A stretch of DNA of 64,000 nt from an uncultured Actinomycetes bacterium (GTDB lineage Bacteria > Actinomycetota > Thermoleophilia > RBG-16-64-13): NCBI GenBank assembly GCA_947085635.1, contig CAMTXC010000006.1:11564-75563 (forward strand), given 5' to 3'. Numbering within the stretch: position 1 is the stretch's first letter; every line of letters begins with the position of its first letter. Under the pieces are notes generated by a model. It worked only from the letters and a program-made list of their open reading frames with translations. It searched no databases and was not told the origin of the DNA. Made by a program: the position numbers and the translations under genes. Positions 23,833 to 60,624 of this stretch are shown piece after piece.

Positions 23833-25607
23833 GCGACGAGACCACGCGCACCGAGACATCTGCGGCACCCGATGCCGGAGTGCATGAGGCGGGTGTGTCC
23901 CACGCGCCGCCCGACGCCGGCGTGCCCGAGCGCGCGGGTGTGCCGGGCCAGGAAGCCGGCGCCGCCTCGCGGCGGCAGCGCCGCATCCTGATCGGTCTGC
24001 TCGCTGTCGTCGTCTTAGCGGTGCTGGTCGTGCTGGTGGCCCAGCTGTTCACCGGGTGCTGGGTCGACGTGGGGAACGAGATGGGCCGGCAACCGAATGT
24101 CGGCTATGTGGAACCTCCGCGCGGGTCGGCTCCCGACGAAGCTGTGCCCTTCCAGGGGCCCGACGTCATGCCCGGCCTCGGGTCTCCCGCCAACCCAGTC
24201 ACGCGCACCGCTGAGTCGGTCGAGCGCGGCGGCCGCAGCTACGGCACCTTCTGTCTGCCGTGCCACGGCGAGGTCGCCCCGGGCGGGCAGCCGGGCATGG
24301 TGGGCATGCTCTTCGCCCCGCCTGTGCCGAACCTCGCCGATCGCATCGACTCGCTGATCGACGGCGACGTGTTCCTCGCGGTGACCAAGGGCTTCGGGCG
24401 CATGCCCGCGCTCGCATCAAGGTTGTCGGTGGAGGAGCGCTGGCACCTGGTCAACTACCTGGGTGCTCAGGGTGACGGCGGGCCCGCGCCCGCCGGGGAC
24501 TCCGCCATCCTCCGCGGCGCCCACCTGTTCGGCGTGCAGTGTGCGTCGTGTCACGGGCCCTCCGGTCAGGGGGCCTTGGGCTCGTCTCTCCACCCGTCGA
24601 GTCTGATGGCCGAGGCCTCGCTCGACGAGATCAAGTCTCTACTCCGGGCGGGTCGCCCCGGTCTCGGCATGCCCTCGTTCGGAGGCCGCCTTTCCGAGCA
24701 AGACCTCGACGACCTGGCTGTGTTGTTGAAGCAACTCCAAGCGCAGGGGCCGTCGGCGCTCGAGGATCCCACCAGTCGGCTTCGGGAGACCACGACCACA
24801 GTCCCGGACACCACCGTCACCACGGGTACCGGAAGGACCGGCACCACACTCCCCGCGACCACCACTACCACGGTCCCGGGCACTACCACGACCACCTCGG
24901 GCGGCGGGGTGGCGGCGAGGGCGCTGGGGCAGAAGGTCTACACCGCCAACTGCCTAGGCTGCCACGGGGTCGACGGGTCGGGTGGTCTTGGCCCACGTTT
25001 GAAGCCGAGCCCATTCGTCGCCGGCTCCAGTGACGACGTGGTACGTGGGGTCATCGAGAACGGTGTGGCGGGAACGGCGATGCCCAATTGGGGCGGGCGC
25101 CTGTCGGCCGACGAGATCTCCGCGCTGGTCGACCTCCTGCGCATCTGGCAGGAGCCTTCGCCGTCGGGGGCCACCGCCACAGGCGGGCCCCCCGAGACCG
25201 TCCCCTTCTCGCACAAGGCGCACGTGGCAAAGGGCGTCACCTGTCTATTCTGCCACAGCTCGGCTGCGCGTGGCCCGGCCGCCGACCTGCCGGCCCTCGA
25301 GTTGTGTGTGGGGTGCCATCGATGGATATCCACACAGACGCCCGACACCCAGGCGGTGCTCGACGCCTTCGACGAAGGCAGGGTCGTGTCGTGGGCGCGG
25401 GTCTACAACCTGCCCGATTTCGTGTTCTTCAGCCATCAGCCTCACGTGGTCGTGGCCAAGGTCGACTGTGCCACGTGCCATGGCGACGTGGGTTCCATGA
25501 CGCTCGCTAAGCGGGCCGTGCGCCACACCATGGGCTTCTGTCTCGGGTGTCACAAGCAGCAGGCCGACAATCAGCGGCTGATCGACTGCCAGATCTGCCA
25601 CAAGTAG
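23829..25607 (+). CDS. Membrane-anchored octaheme cytochrome c: three class-I-like domains plus a pentaheme ActA-like module
   Basis: Eight CxxCH motifs: CLPCH, CASCH, CLGCH, CLFCH, CVGCH, CATCH, CLGCH, CQICH. N-terminal TM helix and a Thr-rich linker. Confidence 0.85.
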   Translation: MSDETTRTETSAAPDAGVHEAGVSHAPPDAGVPERAGVPGQEAGAASRRQRRILIGLLAVVVLAVLVVLVAQLFTGCWVDVGNEMGRQPNVGYVEPPRGSAPDEAVPFQGPDVMPGLGSPANPVTRTAESVERGGRSYGTFCLPCHGEVAPGGQPGMVGMLFAPPVPNLADRIDSLIDGDVFLAVTKGFGRMPALASRLSVEERWHLVNYLGAQGDGGPAPAGDSAILRGAHLFGVQCASCHGPSGQGALGSSLHPSSLMAEASLDEIKSLLRAGRPGLGMPSFGGRLSEQDLDDLAVLLKQLQAQGPSALEDPTSRLRETTTTVPDTTVTTGTGRTGTTLPATTTTTVPGTTTTTSGGGVAARALGQKVYTANCLGCHGVDGSGGLGPRLKPSPFVAGSSDDVVRGVIENGVAGTAMPNWGGRLSADEISALVDLLRIWQEPSPSGATATGGPPETVPFSHKAHVAKGVTCLFCHSSAARGPAADLPALELCVGCHRWISTQTPDTQAVLDAFDEGRVVSWARVYNLPDFVFFSHQPHVVVAKVDCATCHGDVGSMTLAKRAVRHTMGFCLGCHKQQADNQRLIDCQICHK

Positions 25608-25629
25608 GCGAAGAGACGAGGGAGACGGC

Positions 25630-27891
25630 GTGTTCACGGAGATGAGCAGAAGGGATTTTTTCAAGAAGGCGGGCGTGCTCTCCGCTGCCCTGGCCCTGAG
25701 CGGCTGCGGGGGCGACCGCGCCGAAGAGAGGTTGGTGCCGTTCCTTCGGTCTCCGGAGGAAGAGCTGGCCGGCGTCTTCACGCACTACGCCAGCCTGTGT
25801 CGGCAGTGCCCCGCGGGGTGCGGCATCCTGGTGACCACCATGGGAGGCCGCGCCCACAAGCTCGAAGGCAACCCCCGTCACCCGCTGAACCAAGGAAAGC
25901 TCTGTGCGCGCGGGCAGGCCGGGCTGCAGGCCCTCTACAATCCCGATCGCCTTGTCGGTCCACAGGGGCGCGCGGGCTCAGCCGACGGGTTCCAGTCGAT
26001 CACCTGGGACGCCGGGCTCGGGCGCCTGACCAAGGCGCTGAAGGCGGCGGCGTCCCGTCCGGGGTCCGGGGCGGTACGGGCGTACGGTGGCCGGCTTCCC
26101 GACCACACGTACGGTGTGGCGGCGCGTCTTCTTGCCGGGCTCGAGGGCGGCGCCCCGGATACCGATCCTGCGGAGAGCGGCACCCGGCCGCTGGTGTGGG
26201 ATCTACACCGGGCGCTCGACGGAGTGGGACTTCTCGACTCCATCACCCGCGAGATGTACGGCTCGCAGGCCGAGGGTCTGCCGTTCTTCGATCTCGCCTC
26301 CGCCGAGGTCGCGATCTCGTTCTCGGCCGACCTCTTCGGCACGTGGCTCTCTCCGGTGTACTACGGCAGGGCGTATGGCGAGATGCGGCGTGGCCGCGGA
26401 GTTACCCGCGGGTACCTTGCGCAGGTGGAGCCACGACTCTCGGCCACAGGTGTCAGCGCTGACGAATGGTTGGCGGTCGCGGCCGGGCGCGAGGCGTATG
26501 TGGCGCTCTGCCTGGGACGGGTGATCCTCGACGAAGGGCTCGCGGCCGGCCCGCGGCCCGCGGGTGTGGATGCGGTGTTCCAGGGTGTGGACGCTCGTGG
26601 CCTCGCCGCCGGCCTCGGGCTCTCCTTCGAGAGGCTTGTGCGTCTCGCCCGTATCTTCGGGAGCTCGCGGGCTCCTCTGGCGATCCCCGGCGGCGGCCTC
26701 GGGGCGGCCCGGAACGGCGCCGACGCCGTGCGCACCGTCATGGCGCTCAACCTACTGGTGGGGGCGCACGAGAGCACCCTCGGCGCGTCGTCGGCCAAGC
26801 CCGCCGACACGATCCTCGCTACCGAGACGGTCTCTTCGTTCGCCGAGGTGCGCCGGGCGATCGAGGACATGCGGTCGGGCTCTGTCGACGTGTTCCTGGT
26901 TCTCGACGGAGATCCCGTGCACGACCTCCCCTCTTCGCTGGGGTTCTCGGAGGCAGCCGCCAACGTGGGTCTGATCGTTGACTTCTCGCCGTTTCCCACC
27001 GACACCGGCGAGGCACTGGCGCATCTCCGTCTCCCCGCACCCACGTACCTCGAGACCTGGGGTTACCACGTGCCTCAGCCCGGGGCTGGGTTGGCCATCG
27101 TGGGCGCCCAACAGCCGGTGGTGCGGCAACTGCACGACACCCGCTCACCCGTGGACGTGCTCCTCGCGGCCGCCAAGGGCGTGGGCGGCCGTGTCGCCGA
27201 GGCGCTCCCGTGGGAGAACGAGGTGGCGTGCCTGAAGGACGTCGTGGACGGCCTACGCGAACGGACCGACGCCTCCATAACCTCTGGGGACCCCGAAGTC
27301 TTCTGGGTGCGCTGGCAACAGTACGGCGGTTGGTGGGCCACGCAGCCCGACGCGGACCCTCCGACCCCGCGGGCGGTGAGGCCGGGATTGGCCACGTCCG
27401 CGGCCGCGAACGTGGCGGACCCCGTCGAGGACGGGAGTGCGTTTCTGTTGCGGCCGTACGTGTCGCTCACGCTCGGTGACGGTCGTCACGCGAACCAACC
27501 TTGGCTGCATGAGACGCCCGACCCCATGACCTCGGTGATGTGGGACACCTGGGTCGAGATCGCTCCTTCCTCGGCCGCGCGACTGGGTGTCTCTACAGGC
27601 GACATGGTCAAGGTGACATCGTCGGTGGGGTCGGTCGAGGCGCCCGTCTACGTGTACCGGGGCATCGGCCCCGATGTCGTCGCGATGCCCCTGGGCGGGG
27701 GTCACCGTGCATACGGCCGCTACGCGGCGGGGCGCGGGGCGAGCGTGGGCGATCTCATCGAGCCGGTGGCCGGCGCCGAAGGTGAGCTGGCTTGGGGCGC
27801 GACTCGCGTGACCCTCGAGCCTACCGGTGAGTCGAAAGCCCTGGCTACTCTCGAAGGCTCCGAGTCGACGGTGGTTCCGGAAGGCCTGTAA
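25630..27891 (+). CDS. Tat-exported molybdopterin-oxidoreductase family subunit (ActB1/PsrA-like)
   Basis: SRRDFFKKAG twin-arginine signal. N-terminal CRQCPAGC...C FeS motif. GTG start lies 5 nt after GAGGGAG. Confidence 0.85.
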   Translation: MFTEMSRRDFFKKAGVLSAALALSGCGGDRAEERLVPFLRSPEEELAGVFTHYASLCRQCPAGCGILVTTMGGRAHKLEGNPRHPLNQGKLCARGQAGLQALYNPDRLVGPQGRAGSADGFQSITWDAGLGRLTKALKAAASRPGSGAVRAYGGRLPDHTYGVAARLLAGLEGGAPDTDPAESGTRPLVWDLHRALDGVGLLDSITREMYGSQAEGLPFFDLASAEVAISFSADLFGTWLSPVYYGRAYGEMRRGRGVTRGYLAQVEPRLSATGVSADEWLAVAAGREAYVALCLGRVILDEGLAAGPRPAGVDAVFQGVDARGLAAGLGLSFERLVRLARIFGSSRAPLAIPGGGLGAARNGADAVRTVMALNLLVGAHESTLGASSAKPADTILATETVSSFAEVRRAIEDMRSGSVDVFLVLDGDPVHDLPSSLGFSEAAANVGLIVDFSPFPTDTGEALAHLRLPAPTYLETWGYHVPQPGAGLAIVGAQQPVVRQLHDTRSPVDVLLAAAKGVGGRVAEALPWENEVACLKDVVDGLRERTDASITSGDPEVFWVRWQQYGGWWATQPDADPPTPRAVRPGLATSAAANVADPVEDGSAFLLRPYVSLTLGDGRHANQPWLHETPDPMTSVMWDTWVEIAPSSAARLGVSTGDMVKVTSSVGSVEAPVYVYRGIGPDVVAMPLGGGHRAYGRYAAGRGASVGDLIEPVAGAEGELAWGATRVTLEPTGESKALATLEGSESTVVPEGL

Positions 27892-30990: not shown

Positions 30991-31014
30991 GGGTGTCCCG
31001 CGCGCGGGACACCC
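30991..31014. repeat. Perfect 24-bp palindrome gggtgtcccgcgcgcgggacaccc
   Basis: Self-complementary over all 24 nt. Lies about 100 nt upstream of the UPF0182 start. Confidence 0.9.
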
Positions 31015-34783: not shown

Positions 34784-35002
34784 ATGGCTTCGTATGACCT
34801 CAAGTGCTCCGGGTGCGGGCGGCAGTTCGAAGTGTTCGTGCAGGGCTTCCTGAAAGACCAGCACCGTGCGTGCCCGGACTGCGGCAGCTCGGAAGTCGAG
34901 CAGCTGTTCACCGGGTTCATGATGGGTTCCATGGGGGCCCGCGACTCGGTCGCGTGCGCCTCGGCGCCGCCCTCCGGCTGTTCGCATGCCGGCTTCGGCT
35001 GA
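34784..35002 (+). CDS. FmdB-family zinc-ribbon protein
   Basis: MASYDLKCSGCG..FEV....CPDCGS pattern. Confidence 0.7.
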   Translation: MASYDLKCSGCGRQFEVFVQGFLKDQHRACPDCGSSEVEQLFTGFMMGSMGARDSVACASAPPSGCSHAGFG

Positions 35003-35124
35003 GCGCACTGAATGATGGGGGCCCGTGGGGCCCCCGACTGTTCTTACTCGGCCCACACCGGGCCATGGCGGACGTTGCGGAGGTGGCTGAGGTGAGTGGT
35101 GCGATCGGAGAAACGGCGGAGCGA

Positions 35125-35637
35125 ATGACCCGCAGGTGGGTCGCGTTCCTTGTCATCTCGTCCGTGGTGCTGGTGTTCGCTCTGTGCGCGGCCGCGCCGG
35201 CATCCGCCGCGAGTCTGACTCCGGATCAGGAGGCGCTCGCGTCTGACCTCGACGGCAGGCTCATCTCTCCTTGTTGTTGGACTCAGACGATCGCCGTGCA
35301 CGATAGCCAGATAGCCGAGGAGCTGAGGGCGCAGGTGCGCCTGCTCGTGGCTCAAGGCCTGACCGAGGACGACATTCTCGACGCGCTCGTCGCGCAGTAC
35401 GGCGAGGAGATCCTCGCGGCTCCCCGGGCGGCCGGGTTCAACCTGCTCGCCTACGCCCTCCCGGCTCTCATCATCATTCTGGGGGTCGTGGGCATCGCCC
35501 TGCTCGCCTTGAGGTGGCGTGACGGTGGCGCCGAGGTCGCGCCCGCGGCGGCCGCAGTGGGCGACCGGGGCGTATCCGCAGAGCGGGATCCCCTCCGCTC
35601 CCGCCTCGACGAGGAGCTTTCCCGCTTCGATTCCTGA
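35125..35637 (+). CDS. CcmH/NrfF-like cytochrome c maturation protein, variant with vicinal Cys pair
   Basis: Signal peptide, LISPCCWTQTIAVHDSQIAEELR in place of the LRCxxC motif, C-terminal TM helix. Alternative start at ATG 35065. Confidence 0.6.
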   Translation: MTRRWVAFLVISSVVLVFALCAAAPASAASLTPDQEALASDLDGRLISPCCWTQTIAVHDSQIAEELRAQVRLLVAQGLTEDDILDALVAQYGEEILAAPRAAGFNLLAYALPALIIILGVVGIALLALRWRDGGAEVAPAAAAVGDRGVSAERDPLRSRLDEELSRFDS

Positions 35638-36010: not shown

Positions 36011-37117
36011 GTGACGGACATCCTTGCCGCACGCGGCCTCACCCGTCGCGATTTCCTCAAAGTCTGCGGCGGCTTGGCGGCGGCCATGGGATTGGGCCAG
36101 GCGGCCGTTCCCGGCATCGCCAAGGCCTTGGAGGCGGCGGCGAAGAGGCCGCCCGTCATCTGGCTCGACTTCCAGGAGTGCCTGGGTTGCACTGAATCCC
36201 TCTCGAAGAGCCGCTATCCCGATTTCCTGAACATCGTCCTCGACATGATCAGCCTCGAGTACCATGAGGCTCTCATGGCCGGCGCCGGACATCAGGCGGA
36301 GGCGAAGCTCAAGCAGTCGATGGCCGACAACAAGGGCGCCTACGTGCTGGTGGTCGAGGGTTCGGTTGCCACCAAGATCCCGAGCGCCATGACCATCGCC
36401 GGTCGTACTTCGGTTGACATCGCGCGAGAAGCTCTTACCGATGCCGCACTCGTGATCGCCGTGGGCAACTGCGCCTCGTTCGGCAACGTGCAGGCCGCCC
36501 ACCCCAACCCCACCGGGGCTATGGGGATGCTGGCCTTCATGGAGCAGGAGGGCATCGACACGGGCAAGCTGGTGCAGTTGCCCACCTGCCCGGTCAACCC
36601 TATCCACGTCACCAGCACCGTGAGCTACTTCCTCACCTACGGGAAGCTGCCCGAGGTCGACCAGTACCGTCGACCCAAGATCTTTTTCGGGCGCAAGGTG
36701 CATGACGAATGTCCTCGCCGCGCGCATTTTGACGAGGGGCGGTTCGTGGAGGTCTTGGGCAGCCCCGAGGAGTTCGAACGCTATTGCCTTTACAAGATGG
36801 GGTGTCGCGGCCCGCACGCGTACGCGGACTGCGCGACAGTCCTCTGGAACAACAAAGCCAACTGGTGCATCGGTACCGGTTCATGCATTGGCTGCAGTGA
36901 GAAAGACTTCTGGGACGAACTAACGGACTTCTACGCCCCCATGCCCGGGGTGGCTGTGCCGGGCTTCGGCGGGATCCGTGTAGGCGCCGACAGCGTGGGC
37001 ATCGGGTTGGCGGCCGCAACCGGCGGCGCCATCGTCGCCCATCTGGCCGTCAGCGCGGTGAAAGGCCGTATCGGCAGGAACTCCGACGGCACGGTCGCGG
37101 AAGAGAAGGAGGAGTAG
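36011..37117 (+). CDS. [NiFe]-hydrogenase small subunit, Tat-exported, with C-terminal TM anchor
   Basis: TRRDFLK Tat motif, CLGCTES proximal cluster motif, further Cys clusters, hydrophobic C-terminus. Confidence 0.9.
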   Translation: MTDILAARGLTRRDFLKVCGGLAAAMGLGQAAVPGIAKALEAAAKRPPVIWLDFQECLGCTESLSKSRYPDFLNIVLDMISLEYHEALMAGAGHQAEAKLKQSMADNKGAYVLVVEGSVATKIPSAMTIAGRTSVDIAREALTDAALVIAVGNCASFGNVQAAHPNPTGAMGMLAFMEQEGIDTGKLVQLPTCPVNPIHVTSTVSYFLTYGKLPEVDQYRRPKIFFGRKVHDECPRRAHFDEGRFVEVLGSPEEFERYCLYKMGCRGPHAYADCATVLWNNKANWCIGTGSCIGCSEKDFWDELTDFYAPMPGVAVPGFGGIRVGADSVGIGLAAATGGAIVAHLAVSAVKGRIGRNSDGTVAEEKEE

Positions 37118-38755
37118 ATGGCCAAGGTCGTCATCGATCCGGTCACACGTATAGAGGGTCACCTTCGCGTCGAGGTGGAGGTGGAGAACGGCAAGGTCGT
37201 CGATGCGTGGGCTTCGAGCACCATGTTCCGCGGCCTCGAGATGATCGTGGAGAACCGGCCCTGGATGGACGCGTGGCACTACACGCACAGGGTATGCGGC
37301 GTGTGCCCCACCCCGCACGGTCACAACTCCGCCATGTCGCTCGAGAACGCGGCGGGTGTCTCTCCACCGCCGAACGGGCGTCTCATGCGCAACCTGCTGG
37401 AGTGCGCCCAGCTCCTGCACGACCACGTGCTGTGGTTCTACATCTTGAACGGGCTCGACTACGTGAACGTGGTGAGCGCGCTCTCGGCCAAGGCGTCCTC
37501 GCCTCAACTGCAGGCTGTGCAGACACGGCTCAAGGCCTTCGTCGACTCAGGGCAGCTCGGCTTCCTCGAGAGCGGCTACTGGGATCATCCGGCCTACGCC
37601 CTCGACCCTGAACTCAACCTGCAACTTGCCGCCCACTACCTCGAGTCGATCAAGGTGCAGGCGGTCGCCTCGGAGGCCTCGGCCCTGTTCGGCGGCAAGT
37701 TCCCGTACCATATGTCCACTCCGCCGGGCGGGTTCTCCTCGGTGCCGCACCAGGACCAGATCGACCGCTTCGAAGCCAAGGTGCGTGAGGTCAAGGCTTG
37801 GATCGACGGCACCCTGGTGCCCGATCTCCTGGCGATCGCCCCCTTCTATCTCGACCAGGCCGGCATCGGTCAAGGTCATGGCAACTACTTCAGCTGGGGC
37901 GTCATCGACGAGGACCTCGAGGGTGGCGACCCCTACAAGCGGCTCTTCCCGCGGGGGGGCATCTTCGGAGCCTTCGACGGCAACCTCACCGTGCAGCAGG
38001 TGGACCACGAGGCCGACGTGCGCGAGTGGGTCACGAGCTCCTGGAACACCCAGTACGAAGGAGCCCTGCATCCCTGGGAGGGCATCACCGGCCCGGACTT
38101 CACCGGGAAAGAGGGCATCGGCGAGATCGACCGTGAGGGTCGCTACGCCTGGGAGAAGAGCGCGCACCTGAAGGGCGGCCCCGTGGAAGTGGGCCCGCTC
38201 GCCCAGATGCTCATGGCCTATCTCGGCGGACCGGCCGATCATCCCGCCAAGAAGCTCATCGACAACACGCTGGCCGCCGTCGGCCAGGCCGGCAACCCGG
38301 CGGTGCTCCTCTCGAACCTCGGCCGCATCGCGGCGCGGGTTCTCAAGGTGAAGATCATCGGCGACAAGACCCTGGACTACATCGCGCAGTTGCGGGCCAA
38401 CATGGCTGCAGGCGACATGAACTTCTACACGCCTGTGCCCAAGAACCCCACCGGCCGTGGCTTCAGTGGTTGGGACGCCCCGCGCGGCTCGCTGTCCCAC
38501 TGGGCCACCCTGGAGGACGGCCTGGTGAAGCATTACCAGATCATCACGCCGTCGGGCTGGAACTTTGCGCCGCGGGCCGGTGACGGTCGCGTGCGAGGCC
38601 CGGTGGAACAAGCACTCGTGGGCACGCCGGTCGCAGACCCGGAGCGCCCCTTGGAGGTGTTACGGACCTTACACTCCTTCGACCCCTGAATGGCCTGCTC
38701 GGTTCACGTGATTGAACCGAAGAGCAACAAGATCCTCAAGTTCCGCGTCAAGTAG
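37118..38755 (+). CDS. [NiFeSe]-hydrogenase large subunit with selenocysteine at TGA 38687-38689
   Basis: N-terminal RVCGVCPTPHG. The ORF track stops at ..HSFDP, but the same frame continues as U-MACSVH-VIEPKSNKILKFRVK, which gives DPUxxCxxH plus a cleavable tail. Confidence 0.85.
38699..38720 (+). other. SECIS-like hairpin (UCGGUUCA-CGUGAU-UGAACCGA)
   Basis: Perfect 8-bp stem starting 9 nt after UGA 38687-38689. Confidence 0.5.
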
Positions 38756-38765
38756 GCCGGTGATC

Positions 38766-39362
38766 ATGGCGAAGCTGCAGCTCATACGGAAGCACGACAT
38801 CATCGAGCGGTTCATGCACTGGGTACACCTGGTGAACATGATCCTGCTCGTGTTGTCGGGCCTGCAGATCCACTTCCCGGCGTTCAACATCTTCGGCAGC
38901 ATGAGCACGGCTCGATTCGTGCATTTCGTCGACATGTACGTGTTCTTCTTCGTCGGCGTGTTTCACGTGTACCAGTTCTTCGCAACAGGCAAGTGGAACG
39001 TGGCCGGGCCAACGCCGCGCAACATGGCCGGCACCGGAGCGGTCATCAAGTACTATCTGTTCATGGCCGACACGAAGCCGGAATACGGCAAGTACAACCC
39101 CTTGCAGATCATCACCTACTTCCTGCTGTTCGGCATCTCCGCCGTCATGGCGGTCGTGGGCTTCGCGCTCTACTGGCCGGTGCAGCTGGCGGTGGTGGTG
39201 AACGCCTTCGGAGGCATCATGACCCTGCGACAGGTGCACTACATCCTGGCGTGGGTGTTCATCGCGTTCAGCATCGTACATGTCTATCTGATCCTGACCC
39301 AGCCGCTCAAGTACACCAGGGCAATGGTCACGGGGCACTACTGGAAGCGTGCCGGCGGGTAG
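38766..39362 (+). CDS. Ni/Fe-hydrogenase b-type cytochrome subunit (HyaC-like)
   Basis: Four TM helices with conserved His residues (HWVH, HFVD, H..). Immediately downstream of the large subunit. Confidence 0.85.
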   Translation: MAKLQLIRKHDIIERFMHWVHLVNMILLVLSGLQIHFPAFNIFGSMSTARFVHFVDMYVFFFVGVFHVYQFFATGKWNVAGPTPRNMAGTGAVIKYYLFMADTKPEYGKYNPLQIITYFLLFGISAVMAVVGFALYWPVQLAVVVNAFGGIMTLRQVHYILAWVFIAFSIVHVYLILTQPLKYTRAMVTGHYWKRAGG

Positions 39363-39416: not shown

Positions 39417-39557
39417 GGTCGGCCCTCGAGACGCCGTCACCCCCCAGGCGGCGTCTCGCCCTTTCCGGTTCGGAGCCCTCCGTGCATGGGGGCAGGGTCG
39501 TTTCCGGGACACCCTTCAACGGGTACATTCACATGAACACCGCCCTTGGAGGAATCC

Positions 39558-40499
39558 GTGCCTGCAGACCTACAGAGATCCGTTCACTACGACGTAGTCG
39601 TGGTCGGCGCCGGGCCGGCCGGCATCACGGCCGCCATCAACATCGCCAACCGCAAGCGCACGGTGCTGGTGCTCGACTCCCAGTCCCCGTTCTCGAAGGC
39701 GGGCAAAGCGCCCGCCGTGCCCAACTACCCGGGGTTCGCCTACGCCACCGGTGAGCAGCTCGGCGAGGCGTTCCTCCAGCACCTCGACCGCTTCGAGGTG
39801 CCCATCGTGCGCGAGAAGGCCTCGAAGATCATGGCCGACGACGACGGGTTCCTCGTGTTTACCGACCGTGAGATGTACCGGGTGAAGGCGGTGATCCTCG
39901 CCACCGGGGTGCATCGGTTGACCGATCTCGAGGGCGAGGATGCCCTGGTCGGGCGGGGGGTGAGCTACTGCGCCAACTGCGACGGCCGTCTGTTCGGCGG
40001 GCGGGAGGTGGTCTACATCGCCTACAGCCCGGATGGGGAGGAGGAAGCCTCCGTCCTCTCCGAGGAACTCGGCGTCTCCGTGACCTACCTGCCGCTGTAC
40101 GCCGAGGAGCCGAACCTGCCCGAGAGCGTGAAGGTGTTGCCGCGGGAGCGCCCCGACCGGCTGTACTCCCGCGACGGCAAGGTGGCGGTCGAGTTGAAGA
40201 GCGGCCCCCTCGTGGTCGACGGGGTGTTCGTGCACAAGCCGAGCGTCGCTCCCGGCGATCTGGTCGAAGGCATCCAGGTGGAAGATGGGCACGTGGTGGT
40301 CGACCGGCGTATGGCGGCCGGAGTGCCCGGCGTGTTCGCGGCGGGGGACGCGACGGGCGAGCCGTACCAGATCGCGAAGGCCGTGGGCGAAGGCCAGGTG
40401 GCGGCCCTGCATGCTCTACGGTACCTGCGCGAGCGTGCACGTCCACCCACCCCGGAGGAGCCGCCGGCGCTTGCGGCGGCCGACTGCGTACCGCGATAG
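39558..40499 (+). CDS. Thioredoxin-reductase-like flavoprotein lacking canonical NADPH-binding motifs
   Basis: GAGPAG FAD motif, CANCDG redox motif, GDATG. AYSPDG replaces GGGNSA. GTG 39558 follows GGAGGA. Confidence 0.8.
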   Translation: MPADLQRSVHYDVVVVGAGPAGITAAINIANRKRTVLVLDSQSPFSKAGKAPAVPNYPGFAYATGEQLGEAFLQHLDRFEVPIVREKASKIMADDDGFLVFTDREMYRVKAVILATGVHRLTDLEGEDALVGRGVSYCANCDGRLFGGREVVYIAYSPDGEEEASVLSEELGVSVTYLPLYAEEPNLPESVKVLPRERPDRLYSRDGKVAVELKSGPLVVDGVFVHKPSVAPGDLVEGIQVEDGHVVVDRRMAAGVPGVFAAGDATGEPYQIAKAVGEGQVAALHALRYLRERARPPTPEEPPALAAADCVPR

Positions 40500-40608: not shown

Positions 40609-41007
40609 CTAGCGCTCTATGGCTCCCCTCCACGCCTGGATGCCCTGGGCCATGTCGAACACGTCTTTGTAGCCCGCCGCGCTGAGCATCGCCGCCGCCT
40701 CGGCGCTTCGGCTCGCTGTGAGACAGTAGACGATGATCGGGCGGTCGCCGGGCACCTCGGCCATGCGCGACTTGAGTTGTTGCACGGGTATGAGGACTGC
40801 GCCGGGGATGTGGCCCGCGTCGAACTCGCTTTGGGTTCGAACGTCGAGCAGGAAGACCTGTTCTCCCGAGTCGAGTCGCTCCCTCACCGTCTCCGGGCTG
40901 ATCGAGGTGTATGTGCCCGCGCACCCCGAGAGTACTGCGATCGCTCCCACTATCGCCGCCGCCGCGAGTGCCGCGAGGGCGCGGCGTGCGGTGTCTTGGC
41001 GACTCAT
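40609..41007 (-). CDS. Rhodanese-domain sulfurtransferase, lipoprotein
   Basis: LSGC lipobox. Active-site loop CLTASRS. Confidence 0.8.
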   Translation of the reverse strand: MSRQDTARRALAALAAAAIVGAIAVLSGCAGTYTSISPETVRERLDSGEQVFLLDVRTQSEFDAGHIPGAVLIPVQQLKSRMAEVPGDRPIIVYCLTASRSAEAAAMLSAAGYKDVFDMAQGIQAWRGAIER

Positions 41008-46543: not shown

Positions 46544-47005
46544 GTGACGGAATCGAATGCGGCGCCCGTGGCGGTGGGCGGTTCGAGGCGCAGGTGGAAG
46601 ATGATCGCGGGCGCGGTCGTGCTCGCGCTTGCCGCGGGCTGGTTGTTGCTCTACGTGACGGTGGGAGGCGACTTCTACATGACCGTGGGCGAACTCGAGG
46701 AAGCCGGCGACGCCGCCAACGTGCGAGTGGGCGGGCAGGTTGTGCCGGATAGCGTCACCCAAATGGGAGATACGGCTACCTTCACGATACGGGATGATTC
46801 GGGCGCTGCTCTCGACGTGATCTACACCGGAGCCTTCCCCGAGCGTTTGCGGTCGTACGAATACGTCGTGGCCACGGGTTCTGTGCAGCCCGGCGGTCCC
46901 TTCGAGGCTGTGGAGGTTCTGGTAAAATGCCCCGACAAGCTCTTTGCTGAGAAACTCACCAATGGCGTCCTCGGTGGAGTGGGTCTCGAAAGGGTCCTCT
47001 ATTGA
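46544..47005 (+). CDS. ccmE: CcmE heme chaperone paralog 1 (Cys variant, KCPDKLF)
   Basis: N-terminal TM helix, OB-fold-like core (VRVGGQV...). Cys sits at the position of the heme-binding His. Confidence 0.75.
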   Translation: MTESNAAPVAVGGSRRRWKMIAGAVVLALAAGWLLLYVTVGGDFYMTVGELEEAGDAANVRVGGQVVPDSVTQMGDTATFTIRDDSGAALDVIYTGAFPERLRSYEYVVATGSVQPGGPFEAVEVLVKCPDKLFAEKLTNGVLGGVGLERVLY

Positions 47006-47081
47006 GCACTCCATCTCTCATTCCCGCTGTGCCTCACGAGATCACCGGCCGGTCGTTGTCGTTCCCGGAAGGGGTAGTCGC

Positions 47082-47504
47082 ATGGAGTCAAAGAAGCTGA
47101 AGTTTCTGGTGGGCGGTGTTGTGATCATAGGAGCGATCGCTACGCTGGCCTTCTTCGCGGTCCGCGAGAACATGGTGTACTACTACACGGTCACGGAGAT
47201 GCTCGACAAGGGCCGGTCGGCGAACGTGCGCGTGGCGGGCGACTTGGTCAGCGGAACCCTTGTCAAGGGCGGAGTGGGCGAGCCCATCGAGTTCGAGATC
47301 TACGACAAGGAAGCCACGGAGAACACGCTGTTCATCAAGTACACGGGCGCTGTGCCCGACACGTTCGTGGACGATCCGAACCAGCCGGTGGAGGTCGTCG
47401 TAGAAGGGGACTATCTTTCGGACGGTACCTTCGCTGCAGACTTCCTCATGGCGAAGTGCCCGAGCAAGTACGAGAGTGCGGAGAGCGCGGCCGCGGGGAA
47501 GTAA
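47082..47504 (+). CDS. ccmE: CcmE heme chaperone paralog 2 (CxxxY variant, KCPSKY)
   Basis: N-terminal TM helix, VRVAGDLV core, C-P-S-K-Y motif. Confidence 0.8.
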   Translation: MESKKLKFLVGGVVIIGAIATLAFFAVRENMVYYYTVTEMLDKGRSANVRVAGDLVSGTLVKGGVGEPIEFEIYDKEATENTLFIKYTGAVPDTFVDDPNQPVEVVVEGDYLSDGTFAADFLMAKCPSKYESAESAAAGK

Positions 47505-47629
47505 CCGGTCGGACGGGTGCGCCTCGACCATGGGGGCGCATCGTATTCTCGGGACGATGGACAAGTGGAGTCGCTGGCTGACGCCGTCGTACGTCGACGG
47601 CACATGAAAGGCACGGAGGATCAACCTAT

Positions 47630-49633
47630 ATGAATCAGATCGGCTATTCGGCGCTGTTGCTGGCGGTTCTCACCTCGGCCTTCGGGTTGATCGCGCCGCT
47701 GGTCGCGGTGCGCACCGGGAGTCGGGGTTGGTTGAAGAGCGCCGAAAGGAGCGTGTACGGACTGTGCGCGGTCTCGTTGGTCGCGTCGGCCGCGCTCGTA
47801 TACGCGCTCATGACGCGTGACTACACGAACGAGTACGTCTATAACTACACGTCGAACGAGCTCTCGTGGTTCTACACCCTCTCGGCCTTCTGGGCCGGGA
47901 ACTCCGGTTCGATGCTGCTGTGGCTGGTGATTCTCGCCGTCTTCGCGGCTGTGGTCGTATGGCAGAACCAGGCCAAGAACAGGGAGATCCTGCCGTACGT
48001 GATCTCGATCCTGATGTCCATCGCACTCTTCTTCTCCCTCATGATGACGGCTTCCCGGGGGTCGAACCCCTTCGCGATGGTGCCTGCGGGCGTCTTCCCG
48101 GCCAACGGTTCGGGCCTGAACCCCATGCTGGAGAACCCGGGTATGGTGGCGCACCCCATCACCCTCTTCCTGGGCTATGTGGGCTTCGCGGTTCCATACG
48201 CCTTCGCGATGGCCGCTCTTATTACAAGGAGGCTCGGCGACTTCTGGATCCGCTCTACGCGACGCTGGACCGTCTTCGCCTGGATATTCCTTACGATCGG
48301 CAACATCGTGGGCGCGTGGTGGGCTTACGTGACGCTCGGCTGGGGCGGATACTGGGCGTGGGATCCCGTGGAGAACGCCTCCTTCATGCCGTGGGTCACC
48401 GGCACAGCCTTCCTTCACTCTGTGATGATCCAGGAGAAGAAGGACATGCTGAAGGTGTGGAACATCGTGCTCATAGTGCTCACCTTCTCGCTGACCATCT
48501 TCGGCACGTTCCTCGTCAGGTCAGGCGTCGTAAGCTCGGTTCACAGCTTCGGCCAGAGCAGCCTGGGTTTCTTCTTCCTGGGCTTCCTGGGGCTGATTCT
48601 CGTGTTCTCGCTGAACCTGCTGTTTAGCCGCCTCGACATGCTCAAATCTCGCAACGAGTTGGATAGTTTCGTGTCGCGTGAATCGAGCTTCCTGCTCAAC
48701 AACCTGCTCCTAGTGGGCATAGCGATGACCGTGCTTTGGGGCGTGCTCTTCCCGATCATCAGCGAAGCCGTCACCGGCAACAAGGTGACGGTGGGCCCTC
48801 CGTTCTTCGATCAGGTGATCGCGCCCATCGGCTTGGTTCTCATGTTCGTTACCGGCATATGCCCCCTGATCGCCTGGCGCCGCGCAACCTTGGCCAACCT
48901 CCGCAAGAACCTCATGGTCCCCGGTGTCACGGCGATCGTGGTCCTGGTGGCCCTCATCGCGACAGGGATGCGCCACACGTACGCGATCATCAGCTTCACT
49001 CTCTGCGCCTTCGTGGTTACCACCGTGCTCATGGAGTTCGCCCGCGGTGCGTGGGTGCGGCGGGAGATGTCGGGGGAGAACCTCGCCAAGGCGCTCGTGT
49101 CGCTCACGTGGCGCAACAAACGGCGTTACGGCGGCTACATCGTGCACATCGGGGTCATCTTGTTTCTTTTCGGAGTCACCGGCTCGTATGCGTTCAAACA
49201 GCAGGAATCGCGCACGATCACCAAGGGTGAGTCCATCTCGGTGGGAGGGTACGAGGTTACTTACGATAGCTTCGACTCGTACGACACCACCGAGAAGCGT
49301 GTGGGTACCGTCACGTTCACGGTGGCCGAGAACGGGCGGTTCCTTGGGACAGTGGCTCCGCGCAAGGAGTATTACTTCGCGAAGGATCAGCCGTGGACGC
49401 GGATCGACCGCAACGTCACTCTGACGCGCGACGTGTACGTGTCCCTACTCGACTACTCGGCCGAGACCGGCGAGGCCAACGTCGAGGTTCGCATCAATCC
49501 TCTGGTGAGCTGGTTGTGGATCGGGGGGATCGTGATGGTGCTTGGCGGTATTGTCGCCATTTGGCCTGACAAGCGCGACGCCCAACGTCTGGCGGCTCGC
49601 TATGAAAGACAAGTGAGGCTCCATGAGATCTAA
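47630..49633 (+). CDS. ccmF: Cytochrome c-type biogenesis protein CcmF (heme lyase)
   Basis: WGGYWAWDPVEN WWD motif and about 15 TM helices. Confidence 0.9.
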   Translation: MNQIGYSALLLAVLTSAFGLIAPLVAVRTGSRGWLKSAERSVYGLCAVSLVASAALVYALMTRDYTNEYVYNYTSNELSWFYTLSAFWAGNSGSMLLWLVILAVFAAVVVWQNQAKNREILPYVISILMSIALFFSLMMTASRGSNPFAMVPAGVFPANGSGLNPMLENPGMVAHPITLFLGYVGFAVPYAFAMAALITRRLGDFWIRSTRRWTVFAWIFLTIGNIVGAWWAYVTLGWGGYWAWDPVENASFMPWVTGTAFLHSVMIQEKKDMLKVWNIVLIVLTFSLTIFGTFLVRSGVVSSVHSFGQSSLGFFFLGFLGLILVFSLNLLFSRLDMLKSRNELDSFVSRESSFLLNNLLLVGIAMTVLWGVLFPIISEAVTGNKVTVGPPFFDQVIAPIGLVLMFVTGICPLIAWRRATLANLRKNLMVPGVTAIVVLVALIATGMRHTYAIISFTLCAFVVTTVLMEFARGAWVRREMSGENLAKALVSLTWRNKRRYGGYIVHIGVILFLFGVTGSYAFKQQESRTITKGESISVGGYEVTYDSFDSYDTTEKRVGTVTFTVAENGRFLGTVAPRKEYYFAKDQPWTRIDRNVTLTRDVYVSLLDYSAETGEANVEVRINPLVSWLWIGGIVMVLGGIVAIWPDKRDAQRLAARYERQVRLHEI

Positions 49634-50192
49634 CATGCATGCCGGGCGCCGAATGGTTCGCGCCACAGCCAAGGTGGCTACTGCCAAGGTAGCCGCACGG
49701 CCGGCGTTCGCCCGGCTCACAGCGCTGCTGGGGGCCGTAGTCATCGCCGTCGCCGCGTTACTGTTCATCGCAGCGCCCGCCTTTGCAGTACCGCCGGTAT
49801 CGAGTGTGGCCGACCAGCTCATCTGCCAGTGTGGGTGCGCCGCGGTGCTCACTGATTGCCCACACCAGGAGTGCGGCTGGGGTATCCCGGCCAAGCAGTA
49901 CATCGGCCAGCAGCTGGAGGCCGGCCGGTCGCCGGAGGCCCTCGTGCAATACTACGTGGAGGAATACGGCGAACAGGTGCTCGCCGCTCCCACGAAGCGG
50001 GGCTTCAACATGGTGGCGTGGGTGGCACCCTTCGCCGCGCTCATCATCGGAGCCGTGGCCGTGTACTTCCTAATCGGTATGTGGGCGCGGCGTAACGGCT
50101 CAGATGTGGAGGAGGTGCCGTTTCGTGAGGTCGGCCTCGCTCCTGAAGATCTGGAACGCAGGCTCGATAATGAGCTGCGGGAGTTCGATTGA
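49623..50192 (+). CDS. ccmH: CcmH/NrfF-like protein, Cys-rich variant
   Basis: Signal peptide, LICQCGCAAVLTDCPHQEC, C-terminal TM helix. Overlaps the end of ccmF. Confidence 0.65.
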   Translation: MRSNMHAGRRMVRATAKVATAKVAARPAFARLTALLGAVVIAVAALLFIAAPAFAVPPVSSVADQLICQCGCAAVLTDCPHQECGWGIPAKQYIGQQLEAGRSPEALVQYYVEEYGEQVLAAPTKRGFNMVAWVAPFAALIIGAVAVYFLIGMWARRNGSDVEEVPFREVGLAPEDLERRLDNELREFD

Positions 50193-50253
50193 GCGGCGGC
50201 CTGTGTGTCCGGTGCGTTAGGCGGGTCGCGTCGATTGTCGGCAGCGCGAAGGA

Positions 50254-50874
50254 GTGATGCTGAAGGTGTTCGAGATGCTGATTCAGGTGATACTGGCTTT
50301 GTCGGTCGTGGCCTTCATCGGCTACCCGCTCCTCAGGGCCGCGCAGACGGGCGAGGCCGAAGCACAGCCACTCTCCGAGGAGTTGGAGGACCTTCTCAGC
50401 AAGAAGGAGTCCACGTACTCCGCTTTGAAGGAACTCGAGTTCGATTTCAAGATGGGCAAGCTGTCCGAGAAAGACTACGTGGAGATCGACGCGCGCTATC
50501 GCGATGATGCCCTGGAGATACTCGGGGCGATTGAGGAGGCGGAGAAGGGATCACCCTCAGATGGTTCTGGCGCCCCTCGCCGCACCAAGAAAGCCCGACC
50601 ACAGGTGGAAAGCCGCCCACCGACGATCGCGAGGCCGAAGCCCGCGAAGGCGACCACCATCGGAAAGACGGCAGCGACTGTCACCTGCGCCGACTGCGGT
50701 CGCGAGAACCCGCCGGGTTCCCGCTTCTGCGCCTCGTGTGGTGTGGATCTCGAGGAGGCTTCGGCGAATGCAGACGCGGGCGGCTCCGACGAGCTCGTCT
50801 GCGACGAGTGCGGGCGTGACGTGGCAGCCGATCACCGGTTCTGCGCCGGCTGTGGCGCGGAGGTGGAGGCCTGA
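50254..50874 (+). CDS. CcmI-like N-terminal TM segment fused to a coiled-coil region and a double zinc ribbon
   Basis: ILALSVVAFIGYPLLR resembles the CcmI N-terminus. The C-terminus has CADCG..RFCASCG and CDECG..RFCAGCG. Confidence 0.6.
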   Translation: MMLKVFEMLIQVILALSVVAFIGYPLLRAAQTGEAEAQPLSEELEDLLSKKESTYSALKELEFDFKMGKLSEKDYVEIDARYRDDALEILGAIEEAEKGSPSDGSGAPRRTKKARPQVESRPPTIARPKPAKATTIGKTAATVTCADCGRENPPGSRFCASCGVDLEEASANADAGGSDELVCDECGRDVAADHRFCAGCGAEVEA

Positions 50875-50942
50875 GATCACCGGTCGTCGAGGAGACGGGT
50901 GGGGACCGGGCCATCCTGGGCGGCACGTCCGGGGGCCGGGAC

Positions 50943-60592: not shown

Positions 60593-60624
60593 GAGGGGGG
60601 CGGGCGCCGGCCGGCCCTCTTTTG
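60593..60624 (+). terminator. GC-rich hairpin followed by TCTTTTG
   Basis: GAGGG...CCCTC stem flanking a GC-rich interior, then a T-tract. Confidence 0.5.

What the first reader, a model, noticed from the sequence alone, without database searches (positions are those of the whole stretch)
38660..38755. The hydrogenase large subunit is a [NiFeSe] enzyme that the ORF track truncates at the Sec codon
The tracked ORF ends at ...LRTLHSFDP followed by TGA (38687-38689). The same frame continues as MACSVHVIEPKSNKILKFRVK to TAG 38753-38755. This restores the C-terminal Ni-binding motif as DP-U-MA-C-SV-H. In [NiFeSe] hydrogenases the first Cys of DPCxxCxxH is selenocysteine, and the tail after the His is removed by the maturation endopeptidase. 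The N-terminal RxCGxC motif is present. A perfect 8-bp hairpin (38699-38720) starts 9 nt after the UGA. Without read-through the enzyme would lack two of its four Ni ligands.
Basis: partly seen in the sequence, partly recalled or inferred. Interest (0 to 1): 0.7.

Follow-up and report, generated by a model that had tools for sequence, protein, structure and literature searches.

The report
Selenocysteine hydrogenase gene cut short by annotation
The "stop" codon that ends this hydrogenase gene is almost certainly read as selenocysteine, which makes the enzyme a nickel-iron-selenium hydrogenase from an uncultured actinobacterial lineage (Thermoleophilia) where such enzymes have not been described and where public records truncate the gene.

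Summary
ORF 37118-38686 ends ...HSFDP-TGA, and the same frame continues MACSVHVIEPKSNKILKFRVK-TAG. This restores DP-U-xx-C-xx-H plus a 15-residue tail. An 8-bp hairpin with a 6-nt loop lies at 38699-38720.

Comparison settles the interpretation:
- All 17 related Actinomycetota/Thermoleophilia/Gaiellales genomes, and other metagenomic relatives (36 distinct sequences), keep TGA at this codon.
- The downstream reading frame is conserved, and the window's clade always stops 21 codons later.
- The hairpin is nearly invariant, uses rare codons, and shows compensatory changes.
- 43 Cys-type relatives (TGC/TGT) have free codon choice and no hairpin.
- TGA is the commonest ordinary stop in the window, so the code is not reassigned.
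- The hairpin meets all four published bacterial SECIS criteria.

The enzyme is not a classical HysA. It fails NCBIfam's HysA cut-off (330 vs 780 bits). Its nearest solved structures are standard Desulfovibrio [NiFe] enzymes. Its operon is Tat small subunit with a C-terminal membrane anchor, large subunit, cytochrome b.

Not verified: selA/B/C/D and the maturation protease lie outside the DNA I could reach.

Verdict: a real selenoprotein gene and a new lineage of a known kind.

The parts
36011..37117 (+). Hydrogenase small subunit. It has a Tat signal (RRDFLK), standard Fe-S cluster ligands, a fourth Cys at the medial cluster (NWC) and a C-terminal hydrophobic anchor. The mechanical ORF starts at 35825. 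The likely start is GTG 36011, preceded by GGGGGGGAG.
   Evidence: Pfam Oxidored_q6 + NiFe_hyd_SSU_C. TIGR00391 scores 356 bits against a cut-off of 179.5. The alignment to 1h2a_S and 3myr_A shows NWC where they have NWP/SWP. Start position.
37118..38755 (+). Full hydrogenase large-subunit coding sequence, 545 codons including the UGA at codon 524. The ORF track and public annotations stop at 38689.
   Evidence: (full-length alignment to 1h2a_L/1frf_L, E ~1e-127, including the tail).
37289..37318 (+). N-terminal Ni-binding motif R-V-C-G-V-C-P-T-P-H (Cys60, Cys63).
   Evidence: These are invariant columns in alignment A1.
38681..38707 (+). C-terminal Ni-binding motif D-P-U-M-A-C-S-V-H.
   Evidence: It aligns with DPCIACGVH of the solved structures.
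38687..38689 (+). UGA read as selenocysteine (codon 524). It stands where the first Cys of the C-terminal motif, a Ni ligand, stands in Cys-type enzymes.
   Evidence: TGA is kept in 36 distinct related sequences, while 43 distinct relatives have TGC/TGT at the same codon.
38699..38720 (+). Bacterial SECIS hairpin. The stem is 38699-38706 paired with 38713-38720, and the conserved 7-bp core is 38700-38706 with 38713-38719. The apical loop CGUGAU is at 38707-38712, with G at loop position 2 followed by U. The distance from UGA to the loop is 17 nt.
   Evidence: The criteria come from PMC13188914.
38708..38752 (+). 15-residue C-terminal extension (VIEPKSNKILKFRVK), expected to be cut off after His530 by the maturation endopeptidase. 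The TAG stop is at 38753-38755.
   Evidence: The tail has the same length and a similar sequence in 1h2a_L and 1frf_L precursors. The stop falls exactly 21 codons after the UGA in all 21 distinct tails of the clade, as TAG, TGA or TAA. Cleavage itself is inferred.
38766..39362 (+). b-type cytochrome subunit, the membrane electron acceptor of the hydrogenase.
   Evidence: Pfam Ni_hydr_CYTB, E 6e-26. TIGR02125 scores 99 bits, below its cut-off of 121.5. The gene holds the same position in related operons.

Best explanation
The gene encodes the large subunit of a membrane-bound, outward-facing, cytochrome-b-linked uptake hydrogenase. Its first C-terminal nickel ligand is selenocysteine.

Proposed sequence of events:
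1. The ribosome reaches UGA at codon 524.
2. The hairpin 10 nt downstream (7-8 bp stem, loop CGUGAU) recruits SelB-GTP-Sec-tRNA(Sec), so Sec is inserted instead of termination.
3. Translation runs 21 more codons to UAG. This supplies the second Cys, the His and a 15-residue tail.
4. After Hyp-dependent insertion of the NiFe(CN)2CO centre, a HybD/HycI-family endopeptidase removes the tail after His530.
5. The large subunit is exported with the Tat-signal small subunit and is held at the membrane by the small subunit's C-terminal helix and the cytochrome b. Electrons from H2 pass to the quinone pool.

Shown here: the UGA, the restored motif, the conserved frame, the hairpin with its lineage-specific conservation and covariation, and the operon composition.

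Inferred: actual Sec insertion, SelB binding, tail cleavage, export, and the direction and partner of electron flow.
For: 1. The UGA aligns with the first Cys of DPCxxCxxH in the solved enzymes and with the Sec of D. vulgaris HysA.
2. All 17 related Actinomycetota/Thermoleophilia/Gaiellales MAG loci (51-99% aa identity) carry TGA there. It is followed in frame by [MI]AC[SA]VHVIEP... and a stop exactly 21 codons later. Across the 21 distinct tails of the clade that stop is TAG, TGA or TAA.
3. The closest database proteins (509-532 aa) cover 96% of the query, and all 12 truncated ones retrieved end in H[ST][FY]DP. Cys-type relatives run on to DPC[LI]ACTVH...FRV.
4. Hairpin pairing: 31 of 36 distinct Sec-type sequences form all 7 core pairs. 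43 Cys-type sequences form at most 5, most often 2.
5. Covariation: CG<->GC in 7 sequences and GC<->CG in 3. The covariation score is 0.113 against 0.029 in shuffles, reached by 0 of 500 shuffles. RNAalifold finds the same stem.
6. Codon choice in Sec-type versus Cys-type genes: Val GTT 34/36 vs 2/43, Ile ATT 32/36 vs 5/43, His CAC 36/36 vs 22/43.
7. In this window GTT is 4.3% of Val codons and ATT is 5.1% of Ile codons. The joint probability of the codon string is about 1e-4.
8. Third codon positions vary at 2 of 6 hairpin codons, against 19 of 20 upstream and 10 of 11 downstream.
9. The bSECIS criteria of PMC13188914 are all met: loop 6 nt, stem 7-8 bp, G at loop position 2 followed by U, 17 nt from UGA to loop, MFE -10.0 kcal/mol.
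10. TGA ends 31 of 48 other genes in the window, so it is an ordinary stop here.
11. D. vulgaris hysA has a hairpin at the same codons with the same loop start, CGUG.
12. Related Sec-type operons carry a HycI/HybD-family protease and hyp genes next to the cytochrome b gene.
Against: - So the organism's ability to decode Sec is unproven.
- No maturation protease or hyp gene lies within 10 kb in the window's own subclade.
- Rfam has no matching family.
- Taken alone the hairpin is a roughly 1-in-100 event, and the regional fold is not unusually stable (z = -1.39).
- Compensatory changes come from few independent lineages.
- There is no protein-level evidence.
Confidence: 0.9

Rival explanations
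1. Split enzyme. The large subunit really ends at DP, and a separately translated 21-residue peptide (MACSVH...) supplies the CxxH segment, in the manner of VhuU of Methanococcus voltae.
For: In the window and its close relatives the codon after TGA is ATG. Split [NiFeSe] large subunits do exist in methanococci (VhuA/VhuU, listed in PMC13188914).
Against: - In other relatives the codon after TGA is ATC, ATT, CTG, CTC or GTG, and most of these are not usable starts.
- There is no spacer in which a ribosome-binding site could sit.
- Such a peptide would provide only one of the two C-terminal Ni ligands.
- In VhuU the Sec lies inside the small peptide, whereas here the UGA sits at the junction.
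- The invariant hairpin has no role in this model.
Confidence: 0.02
2. Pseudogene or sequencing/assembly error. The TGA is a nonsense mutation or a miscalled TGC/TGT.
For: It is a single-base difference from a Cys codon. Public annotation treats it as a stop.
Against: - The same TGA appears in independent assemblies of the same organism (L001, L028), in 17 different MAGs and in many metagenome contigs.
- The downstream frame, its length and the terminal stop are conserved.
- Upstream coding signal is intact, with GC3 of 0.87.
Confidence: 0.01
3. The UGA is read through without selenium. Either a near-cognate tRNA (Cys, Trp, Arg) suppresses it, or TGA is reassigned in this lineage, giving an ordinary [NiFe] enzyme or one with a non-Cys residue.
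For: The Sec machinery was not found in any DNA I could reach. Leaky UGA read-through exists in bacteria (general knowledge).
Against: - TGA is the main stop codon of the window, ending 31 of 48 genes, so it is not reassigned.
- Low-level leakiness would not explain why UGA is maintained over TGC/TGT across lineages only 41-56% identical.
- It would not explain why a SECIS-type hairpin, with the canonical G in the apical loop, co-occurs strictly with UGA.
- Trp or Arg cannot ligate Ni.
Confidence: 0.05
4. The conserved hairpin is not a SECIS but something else, such as a transcription attenuator, an RNase site or a signal for translational coupling to the cytochrome b gene. On this view its conservation only reflects the conserved peptide VHVIEP.
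For: The peptide is conserved. Hairpins of this size are common in the window, with 36 on the + strand.
Against: - Cys-type relatives with the same or similar peptide (VHVI...) use many synonymous codons and do not pair.
- In Sec-type genes the amino acids themselves follow the RNA: Glu (GAA) in Sec-type against His/Asp in Cys-type, and Ala/Pro changing to Gly/Arg in step to keep the base pairs.
- There is no T-run after the stem.
- The position and loop match the bSECIS model and the D. vulgaris hysA element.
Confidence: 0.02

Closest known systems
Periplasmic [NiFeSe] hydrogenase HysAB of Desulfovibrio vulgaris Hildenborough and Desulfomicrobium baculatum (PDB 2wpn, 5jsu, 1cc1; HydDB group 1a; NCBIfam NF045518/NF045520)
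   Same: - Sec encoded by UGA at the first Cys of the C-terminal DPCxxCxxH motif.
- A SECIS hairpin laid over the following Val-His-Val codons, with the loop starting CGUG.
- A C-terminal tail after the His, with a HycI-family protease gene next to hysA in D. vulgaris.
- A fourth Cys at the medial cluster of the small subunit, implying three [4Fe-4S] clusters (the HysB property is from my own knowledge of Garcin et al. 1999).
   Different: - Only 34% identity.
- It fails both curated models: 330 vs 780 bits and 248 vs 470 bits.
- phmmer aligns it to HysA in two stretches, the best covering only residues 162-545, at 255 bits. The standard [NiFe] enzymes score 430 bits over the full length.
- The operon has a cytochrome b gene, and the small subunit has a C-terminal membrane anchor. 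HysAB is a soluble or lipid-anchored enzyme that passes electrons to periplasmic cytochrome c (the HysAB properties are from my own knowledge).
- The host is an actinobacterium, not a sulfate reducer.
Standard periplasmic [NiFe] hydrogenases of D. vulgaris Miyazaki F, D. fructosivorans and D. gigas (PDB 1h2a, 1frf, 2frv; HydDB group 1b)
   Same: - These are the closest solved structures: E ~1e-127, 44% identity, full-length alignment including the 15-residue tail.
- They have the same Ni-binding motifs and a Tat small subunit.
   Different: - They have Cys (TGC/TGT), not Sec.
- They have Pro, not Cys, at the medial-cluster position, which gives [3Fe-4S].
- They have no cytochrome b and no membrane anchor.
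Membrane-bound cytochrome-b-linked uptake hydrogenases (E. coli Hyd-1 HyaABC, Cupriavidus necator (R. eutropha) MBH; group 1d)
   Same: The operon order is small subunit, large subunit, cytochrome b. The small subunit has a C-terminal anchor.
   Different: - 37% identity.
- All of them are Cys-type.
- The window's proximal-cluster motif is the ordinary ECLGC, not the 6-Cys O2-tolerant type (read from the sequence).
E. coli fdhF-type bacterial SECIS, and the consensus bSECIS model (Zhang and Gladyshev; summarised in PMC13188914)
   Same: A hairpin lies immediately 3' of the UGA inside the coding sequence. The apical loop has G in its first two positions, followed by U. Spacing, loop size, stem length and energy are all within the model.
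   Different: A short perfect stem with no bulged U and no conserved lower stem. No Rfam model covers it.
Group 4 [NiFeSe] hydrogenases found in silico (PMC13582414, 2026)
   Same: These are also Sec variants hidden by UGA truncation in MAG annotations. They also have an apical-loop G that is conserved only in the Sec-type genes.
   Different: [quoted passage not shown] Here it is the canonical C-terminal UxxC of a group 1 uptake enzyme.

Membership tests
[NiFeSe] hydrogenase (functional class: [NiFe] large subunit with Sec in the C-terminal UxxC motif) | In-frame UGA aligned with the first Cys of DPCxxCxxH, with the rest of the motif restored by read-through | tested here: met
[NiFeSe] hydrogenase (functional class) | Bacterial SECIS just downstream: loop 3-9 nt with G in its first two positions, stem 4-16 bp, 16-37 nt from UGA to loop, MFE <= -7.5 kcal/mol | tested here: met
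   Loop CGUGAU, stem 7-8 bp, 17 nt, -10.0 kcal/mol. Criteria from PMC13188914. Conservation and covariation are restricted to UGA-type genes.
[NiFeSe] hydrogenase (functional class) | Purifying selection on the peptide encoded after the UGA | tested here: met
   The CxxH motif is kept in all 36 distinct Sec-type sequences. The stop position is invariant in the 21 distinct tails of the window's clade, while the stop codon itself varies.
[NiFeSe] hydrogenase (functional class) | Genome encodes selA, selB, selC (tRNA-Sec) and selD | not testable with these tools
The other contigs of the MAG cannot be fetched.
[NiFeSe] hydrogenase (functional class) | Selenium present in the mature protein | not testable with these tools
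   This needs 75Se labelling, ICP-MS or mass spectrometry.
HysA/HysB, classical periplasmic [NiFeSe] hydrogenase (NCBIfam NF045518 / NF045520; HydDB 1a) | Score above the curated cut-off of the large-subunit model | tested here: not met
   330 bits against a cut-off of 780. D. vulgaris HysA (P0121) scores 885. NF033181 also fails, 471 vs 600.
HysA/HysB, classical periplasmic [NiFeSe] hydrogenase | Small subunit matches the NiFeSe small-subunit model | tested here: not met
   248 bits against a cut-off of 470.
HysA/HysB, classical periplasmic [NiFeSe] hydrogenase | Four-Cys medial cluster in the small subunit (Cys instead of the Pro of [3Fe-4S] enzymes) | tested here: met
   NWC against NWP/SWP in 1h2a_S and 3myr_A. 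The Cys-type relatives of this family have it too, so it is a family trait and is not tied to Sec.
HysA/HysB, classical periplasmic [NiFeSe] hydrogenase | Two-subunit enzyme without a cytochrome b subunit | tested here: not met
   A cytochrome b gene follows directly. The small subunit carries a hydrophobic C-terminal extension that aligns with those of the membrane-bound enzymes 3rgw_S and 4gd3_S.
Group 1 respiratory uptake [NiFe] hydrogenase | Large subunit PF00374 with both Ni-binding motifs, a Tat-signal small subunit, and a membrane electron-transfer partner | tested here: met
Group 1 respiratory uptake [NiFe] hydrogenase | Dedicated C-terminal endopeptidase (HybD/HyaD/HycI family) and hyp genes | tested here: inconclusive
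   Absent from the window and from +/-10 kb in its closest relatives. Present next to the operon in most other Sec-type and Cys-type relatives.
Split VhuA/VhuU-type [NiFeSe] hydrogenase | The C-terminal Ni-binding segment is a separate gene with its own start, and contains the Sec | tested here: not met
   The UGA is at the junction. Outside the window's own clade, most relatives have no start codon after it and no spacer.

The most novel reading that the evidence does not exclude
The window may represent a large, so far unrecognised family of membrane-bound, cytochrome-b-linked [NiFeSe] uptake hydrogenases.
- The family is found in Thermoleophilia/Gaiellales and other subsurface bacteria that are neither sulfate reducers nor methanogens.
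- It is separate from HysA.
- Sec, together with one shared SECIS design, may be ancestral in it, with the Cys forms derived.

This would contradict the statement that [NiFeSe] hydrogenases occur exclusively in sulfate reducers and methanogens (PMC13188914). It would also mean that most public records of this family are truncated and misread as lacking half the active site.
Probability: 0.5. Interest if true: 0.6.

Novelty: new member of a known kind. Interest (0 to 1): 0.5.

Why it matters
[NiFeSe] hydrogenases are valued for high H2-production activity and fast recovery from O2. Reviews place the known ones in sulfate reducers and methanogens, HydDB groups 1a, 3a and 3c.

This one differs in three ways:
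- It sits in an uncultured actinobacterial lineage.
- It has a different electron-transfer module: a membrane anchor plus cytochrome b.
- It belongs to a family that curated models do not recognise as Sec-containing.

Practical consequences:
- In all 17 MAG loci examined the large-subunit reading frame stops at the Sec codon, and the public protein records retrieved for this clade are truncated there. Metabolic reconstructions may score these enzymes as broken, and selenium dependence of H2 oxidation in these communities is missed.
- The family offers many natural Sec/Cys pairs at about 50% identity, useful for asking what Sec contributes.

Tried and rejected
- Rfam scans, at gathering threshold over the whole window and at E<=10 over 38600-38800, found nothing. 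Rfam has no bacterial hydrogenase SECIS model.
- ARAGORN found no tRNA-Sec in the window or in any fetched locus.
- tblastn with E. coli SelA, SelB and SelD (fetched from MG1655) against the window and all loci gave one weak hit. That hit is HypE: it ends in PRIC and follows HypD.
- I extended the source contig upstream by way of a window protein. The extra DNA holds only an ABC-type (cobalt/ECF-like) transporter and thiamine-related genes.
- A scan for other in-frame TGA genes in the window returned three hits. All lie antisense to real genes.
- I looked for a Sec-specific fourth Cys in the small subunit. The Cys is there, but Cys-type relatives have it too, so it does not track Sec.
- I considered placing the enzyme in HydDB group 1b because the nearest structures are 1b. 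I did not commit: the four-Cys medial cluster and a crude neighbour-joining tree without bootstrap put the family apart from the 1a, 1b, 1c and 1d references. HydDB itself could not be run.
- One look-up for a second classical HysA (P0192) returned nothing.
- I made no structure prediction. With 44% identity to solved structures it would not change the verdict.
Full report
**Observation**

The window reads ...CTT ACA CTC CTT CGA CCC C|TGA|ATG GCC TGC TCG GTT CAC GTG ATT GAA CCG AAG ... TAG. Translation of 37118-38755 gives a 523-residue ORF ending LRTLHSFDP. After it come TGA (38687-38689) and, in the same frame, MACSVHVIEPKSNKILKFRVK and TAG (38753-38755). The N-terminal motif RVCGVCPTPH is present at residues 58-67.

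The hairpin UCGGUUCA-CGUGAU-UGAACCGA occupies 38699-38720. It has 8 Watson-Crick pairs and starts 9 nt after the UGA.

On its own the hairpin is not remarkable:
- The + strand of the window has 36 perfect 8-bp hairpins.
- 5 of 720 TGA trinucleotides have one at a SECIS-compatible distance.
- The 81-nt region folds no better than shuffles (z = -1.39).

**What the protein is**

With U written as C, the 545-residue product aligns end to end with the large subunits of the periplasmic [NiFe] hydrogenases of D. vulgaris Miyazaki (1h2a) and D. fructosivorans (1frf). The E-values are about 1e-127, and the alignment includes DPCIACGVH and the 15-residue tail.

The operon has three genes:
- A Tat-signal small subunit (RRDFLK; Pfam Oxidored_q6 + NiFe_hyd_SSU_C).
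- The large subunit.
- A b-type cytochrome (Ni_hydr_CYTB).

The small subunit has a hydrophobic C-terminal extension that aligns with those of membrane-bound enzymes. It also has Cys (NWC) where the [3Fe-4S] enzymes have Pro (NWP). From established knowledge of [NiFeSe] and P238C-type enzymes, this predicts a [4Fe-4S] medial cluster. Cys-type relatives share the feature, so it belongs to the family and is not linked to Sec.

**Origin**

The window is 66% G+C. It is 99% identical at this gene to JAHJSA010000068.1 (MAG 'Actinomycetota bacterium OS_PC_MetaG.mb.176') and to metagenome contig Ga0180009_10000277. Close relatives are labelled Thermoleophilia, Gaiellales or Actinomycetes MAGs.

**Comparative test of read-through**

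The best database hits (509-532 aa) cover 96% of the query, and all 12 truncated ones retrieved end in H[ST][FY]DP. More distant 530-aa relatives continue DPC[LI]ACTVH...FRV.

At the DNA level, all 17 actinobacterial loci (51-99% identity) have TGA at this codon. It is followed in frame by [MI]AC[SA]VHVIEP[KQ][ST]N... and a stop exactly 21 codons later. In the 21 distinct tails of the clade the stop is TAG 15 times, TGA 5 times and TAA once.

A metagenome scan added more members of the window's clade. It also found a second Sec-type clade (41-46% identity; U[ILV]GC[AG]VHVIEPKTGK..., with a longer tail) and many Cys-type relatives with TGC/TGT.

These data exclude a nonsense mutation or a sequencing error. 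They also argue against a separately translated peptide. The codon after UGA is ATC, ATT, CTG, CTC or GTG in many relatives, and such a peptide would lack the first ligand.

TGA terminates 31 of 48 other genes in the window, so the code is not reassigned.

**The RNA element**

In 36 distinct Sec-type sequences the core CGGUUCA-CGUGAU-UGAACCG is almost invariant. 31 of them form all 7 core pairs. 43 distinct Cys-type sequences form at most 5, most often 2. RNAalifold recovers the same 7-bp stem.

The two basal pairs covary: CG<->GC in 7 sequences and GC<->CG in 3. These changes alter the encoded amino acids in step (Ala/Pro to Gly/Pro or Gly/Arg). The covariation score is 0.113 against 0.029 in shuffles, and none of 500 shuffles reaches it. 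Two sequences use a re-registered stem, GUCCAC-GUG-GUGGAC. The compensatory events come from few lineages, so this counts as support, not proof.

Codon choice is the sharper signal:

| Codon | Sec-type genes | Cys-type genes |
|---|---|---|
| Val GTT | 34/36 | 2/43 |
| Ile ATT | 32/36 | 5/43 |
| His CAC | 36/36 | 22/43 |

- The residue after Ile is Glu (GAA) in Sec-type genes but His or Asp in Cys-type genes.
- In this genome GTT and ATT are 4-5% of their codon families. The probability of the observed codon string given the peptide is about 1e-4.
- Third positions vary at 2 of 6 hairpin codons, against 19 of 20 upstream and 10 of 11 downstream.

The element meets every criterion of the published bSECIS model (PMC13188914): loop 6 nt, G at loop position 2 followed by U, stem 7-8 bp, 17 nt from UGA to loop, and -10.0 kcal/mol. 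D. vulgaris hysA has a hairpin over the same Val-His-Val codons (CGUGCA-CGUGC-UGCACG) with the same loop start. The design is therefore shared with the characterised enzyme.

**Relation to known [NiFeSe] enzymes**

The enzyme works like HysA but is not a member of that family.

| NCBIfam model | Window protein (bits) | Cut-off (bits) |
|---|---|---|
| NF045518 (HysA, large subunit) | 330 | 780 |
| NF033181 | 471 | 600 |
| NF045520 (NiFeSe small subunit) | 248 | 470 |

D. vulgaris HysA scores 885 on NF045518.

Identity of the window's large subunit to reference enzymes:

| Reference | Identity |
|---|---|
| D. vulgaris HysA | 34% |
| D. vulgaris MF [NiFe] | 44% |
| E. coli HybC | 39% |
| E. coli HyaB | 37% |
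| Cys-type members of its own family | 53% |

A crude neighbour-joining tree puts the whole family apart from the 1a, 1b, 1c and 1d references. Within the family there are two Sec clades and one mainly Cys clade (no support values, not to be over-read).

HydDB lists [NiFeSe] variants only for groups 1a, 3a and 3c. A 2026 review states that they are found exclusively in sulfate reducers and methanogens. [quoted passage not shown] I found no paper in the library that links [NiFeSe] to Thermoleophilia or Actinobacteria.

**What is missing**

The one weak SelD-like hit is HypE.

No HybD/HycI-family protease or hyp gene lies within 10 kb in the window's own subclade. Most other Sec-type and Cys-type relatives have the protease right after the cytochrome b gene. 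No other candidate selenoprotein gene is in the window. An FdhD gene at 60622-61671 hints at a formate dehydrogenase elsewhere.

**Verdict**

This is a genuine UGA-Sec recoding site with its SECIS, in a hydrogenase large subunit that gene callers and public annotation truncate.

The mechanism is the well-known one. What is new is the lineage: an actinobacterial host, a cytochrome-b-linked enzyme, placement outside the curated HysA family, and wide occurrence in metagenomes. I rate it a new member of a known kind with moderate interest. Confidence in Sec decoding is about 0.9, and the remaining doubt comes from the unverified Sec machinery.

Noticed in passing
window 36011-37117 (small subunit, motif ...ANWCIGTGSCIGCSE): The small subunit has Cys where [3Fe-4S]-type hydrogenases have Pro (NWP). 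This predicts an all-[4Fe-4S] electron relay. Cys-type relatives of the family share it, so it is not coupled to Sec.
   Followed up: partly
L077-L091, L098-L101, L104 (metagenome contigs): There is a second Sec-type clade, 41-46% identical to the window protein, with motif U[ILV]GC[AG]VHVIEPKTGK and a longer tail. It carries the same hairpin. A few Cys-type sequences (L093, L103, L105) nest in or beside it, which suggests Sec/Cys switches within the family.
   Followed up: partly
L082:4585-4638 and L086:1843-1896: Two Sec-type genes replace the usual hairpin by GUCCAC-GUG-GUGGAC, a 6-7 bp stem with a 3-nt loop, at the same place. The peptide changes from VIEP to VVDT.
   Followed up: no
L108:4465-4530 (D. 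vulgaris hysA): The classical hysA gene has its hairpin over the same Val-His-Val codons, with the loop starting CGUG. This may point to a common origin of the UGA+SECIS module, or to strong convergence imposed by the VHV codons.
   Followed up: partly
window, L001-L006, L008, L010, L012, L017 (+/-10 kb): The maturation protease gene that follows the cytochrome b gene in most relatives is missing from the neighbourhood in the window's own subclade. In the window a pyridine-nucleotide-disulfide oxidoreductase (39546-40499) and a rhodanese (40609-41007, minus strand) follow instead.
   Followed up: partly
window 34804-35637 and 46944-53124: A CcmH-like gene lies directly upstream of the hydrogenase operon. 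A system-I cytochrome c maturation set (CcmE, CcmF, CcmH, CcmB, CcmC-like) lies downstream, interleaved with zinc-ribbon proteins of unknown function.
   Followed up: no
window 21064-27891: This is an alternative-complex-III-like cluster: a 4Fe-4S dicluster protein, an NrfD-type membrane subunit, ActD, a multihaem cytochrome c (592 aa) and a separate molybdopterin-oxidoreductase-family protein (753 aa).
   Followed up: no
window 60622-62809: FdhD/NarQ-family sulfur-carrier gene followed by a DUF1786 gene. No formate dehydrogenase catalytic subunit, a common selenoprotein, is in the window.
   Followed up: no
window 14436-16390 (minus strand): An RtcB RNA ligase and archease gene pair lies next to a Lon protease and an Hsp20 gene.
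   Followed up: no
L014, L015 (small subunit, motif NWC[VI]GCGNGCIGC): Two Gaiellales relatives have an extra Cys-Gly-Cys inside the medial-cluster loop of the small subunit.
   Followed up: no
window 30991-31014: A GC-rich palindrome (CGCGCGCG core) forms nested perfect hairpins between convergent or adjacent genes. It looks like a terminator-type structure. It was seen only in the hairpin census.
   Followed up: no
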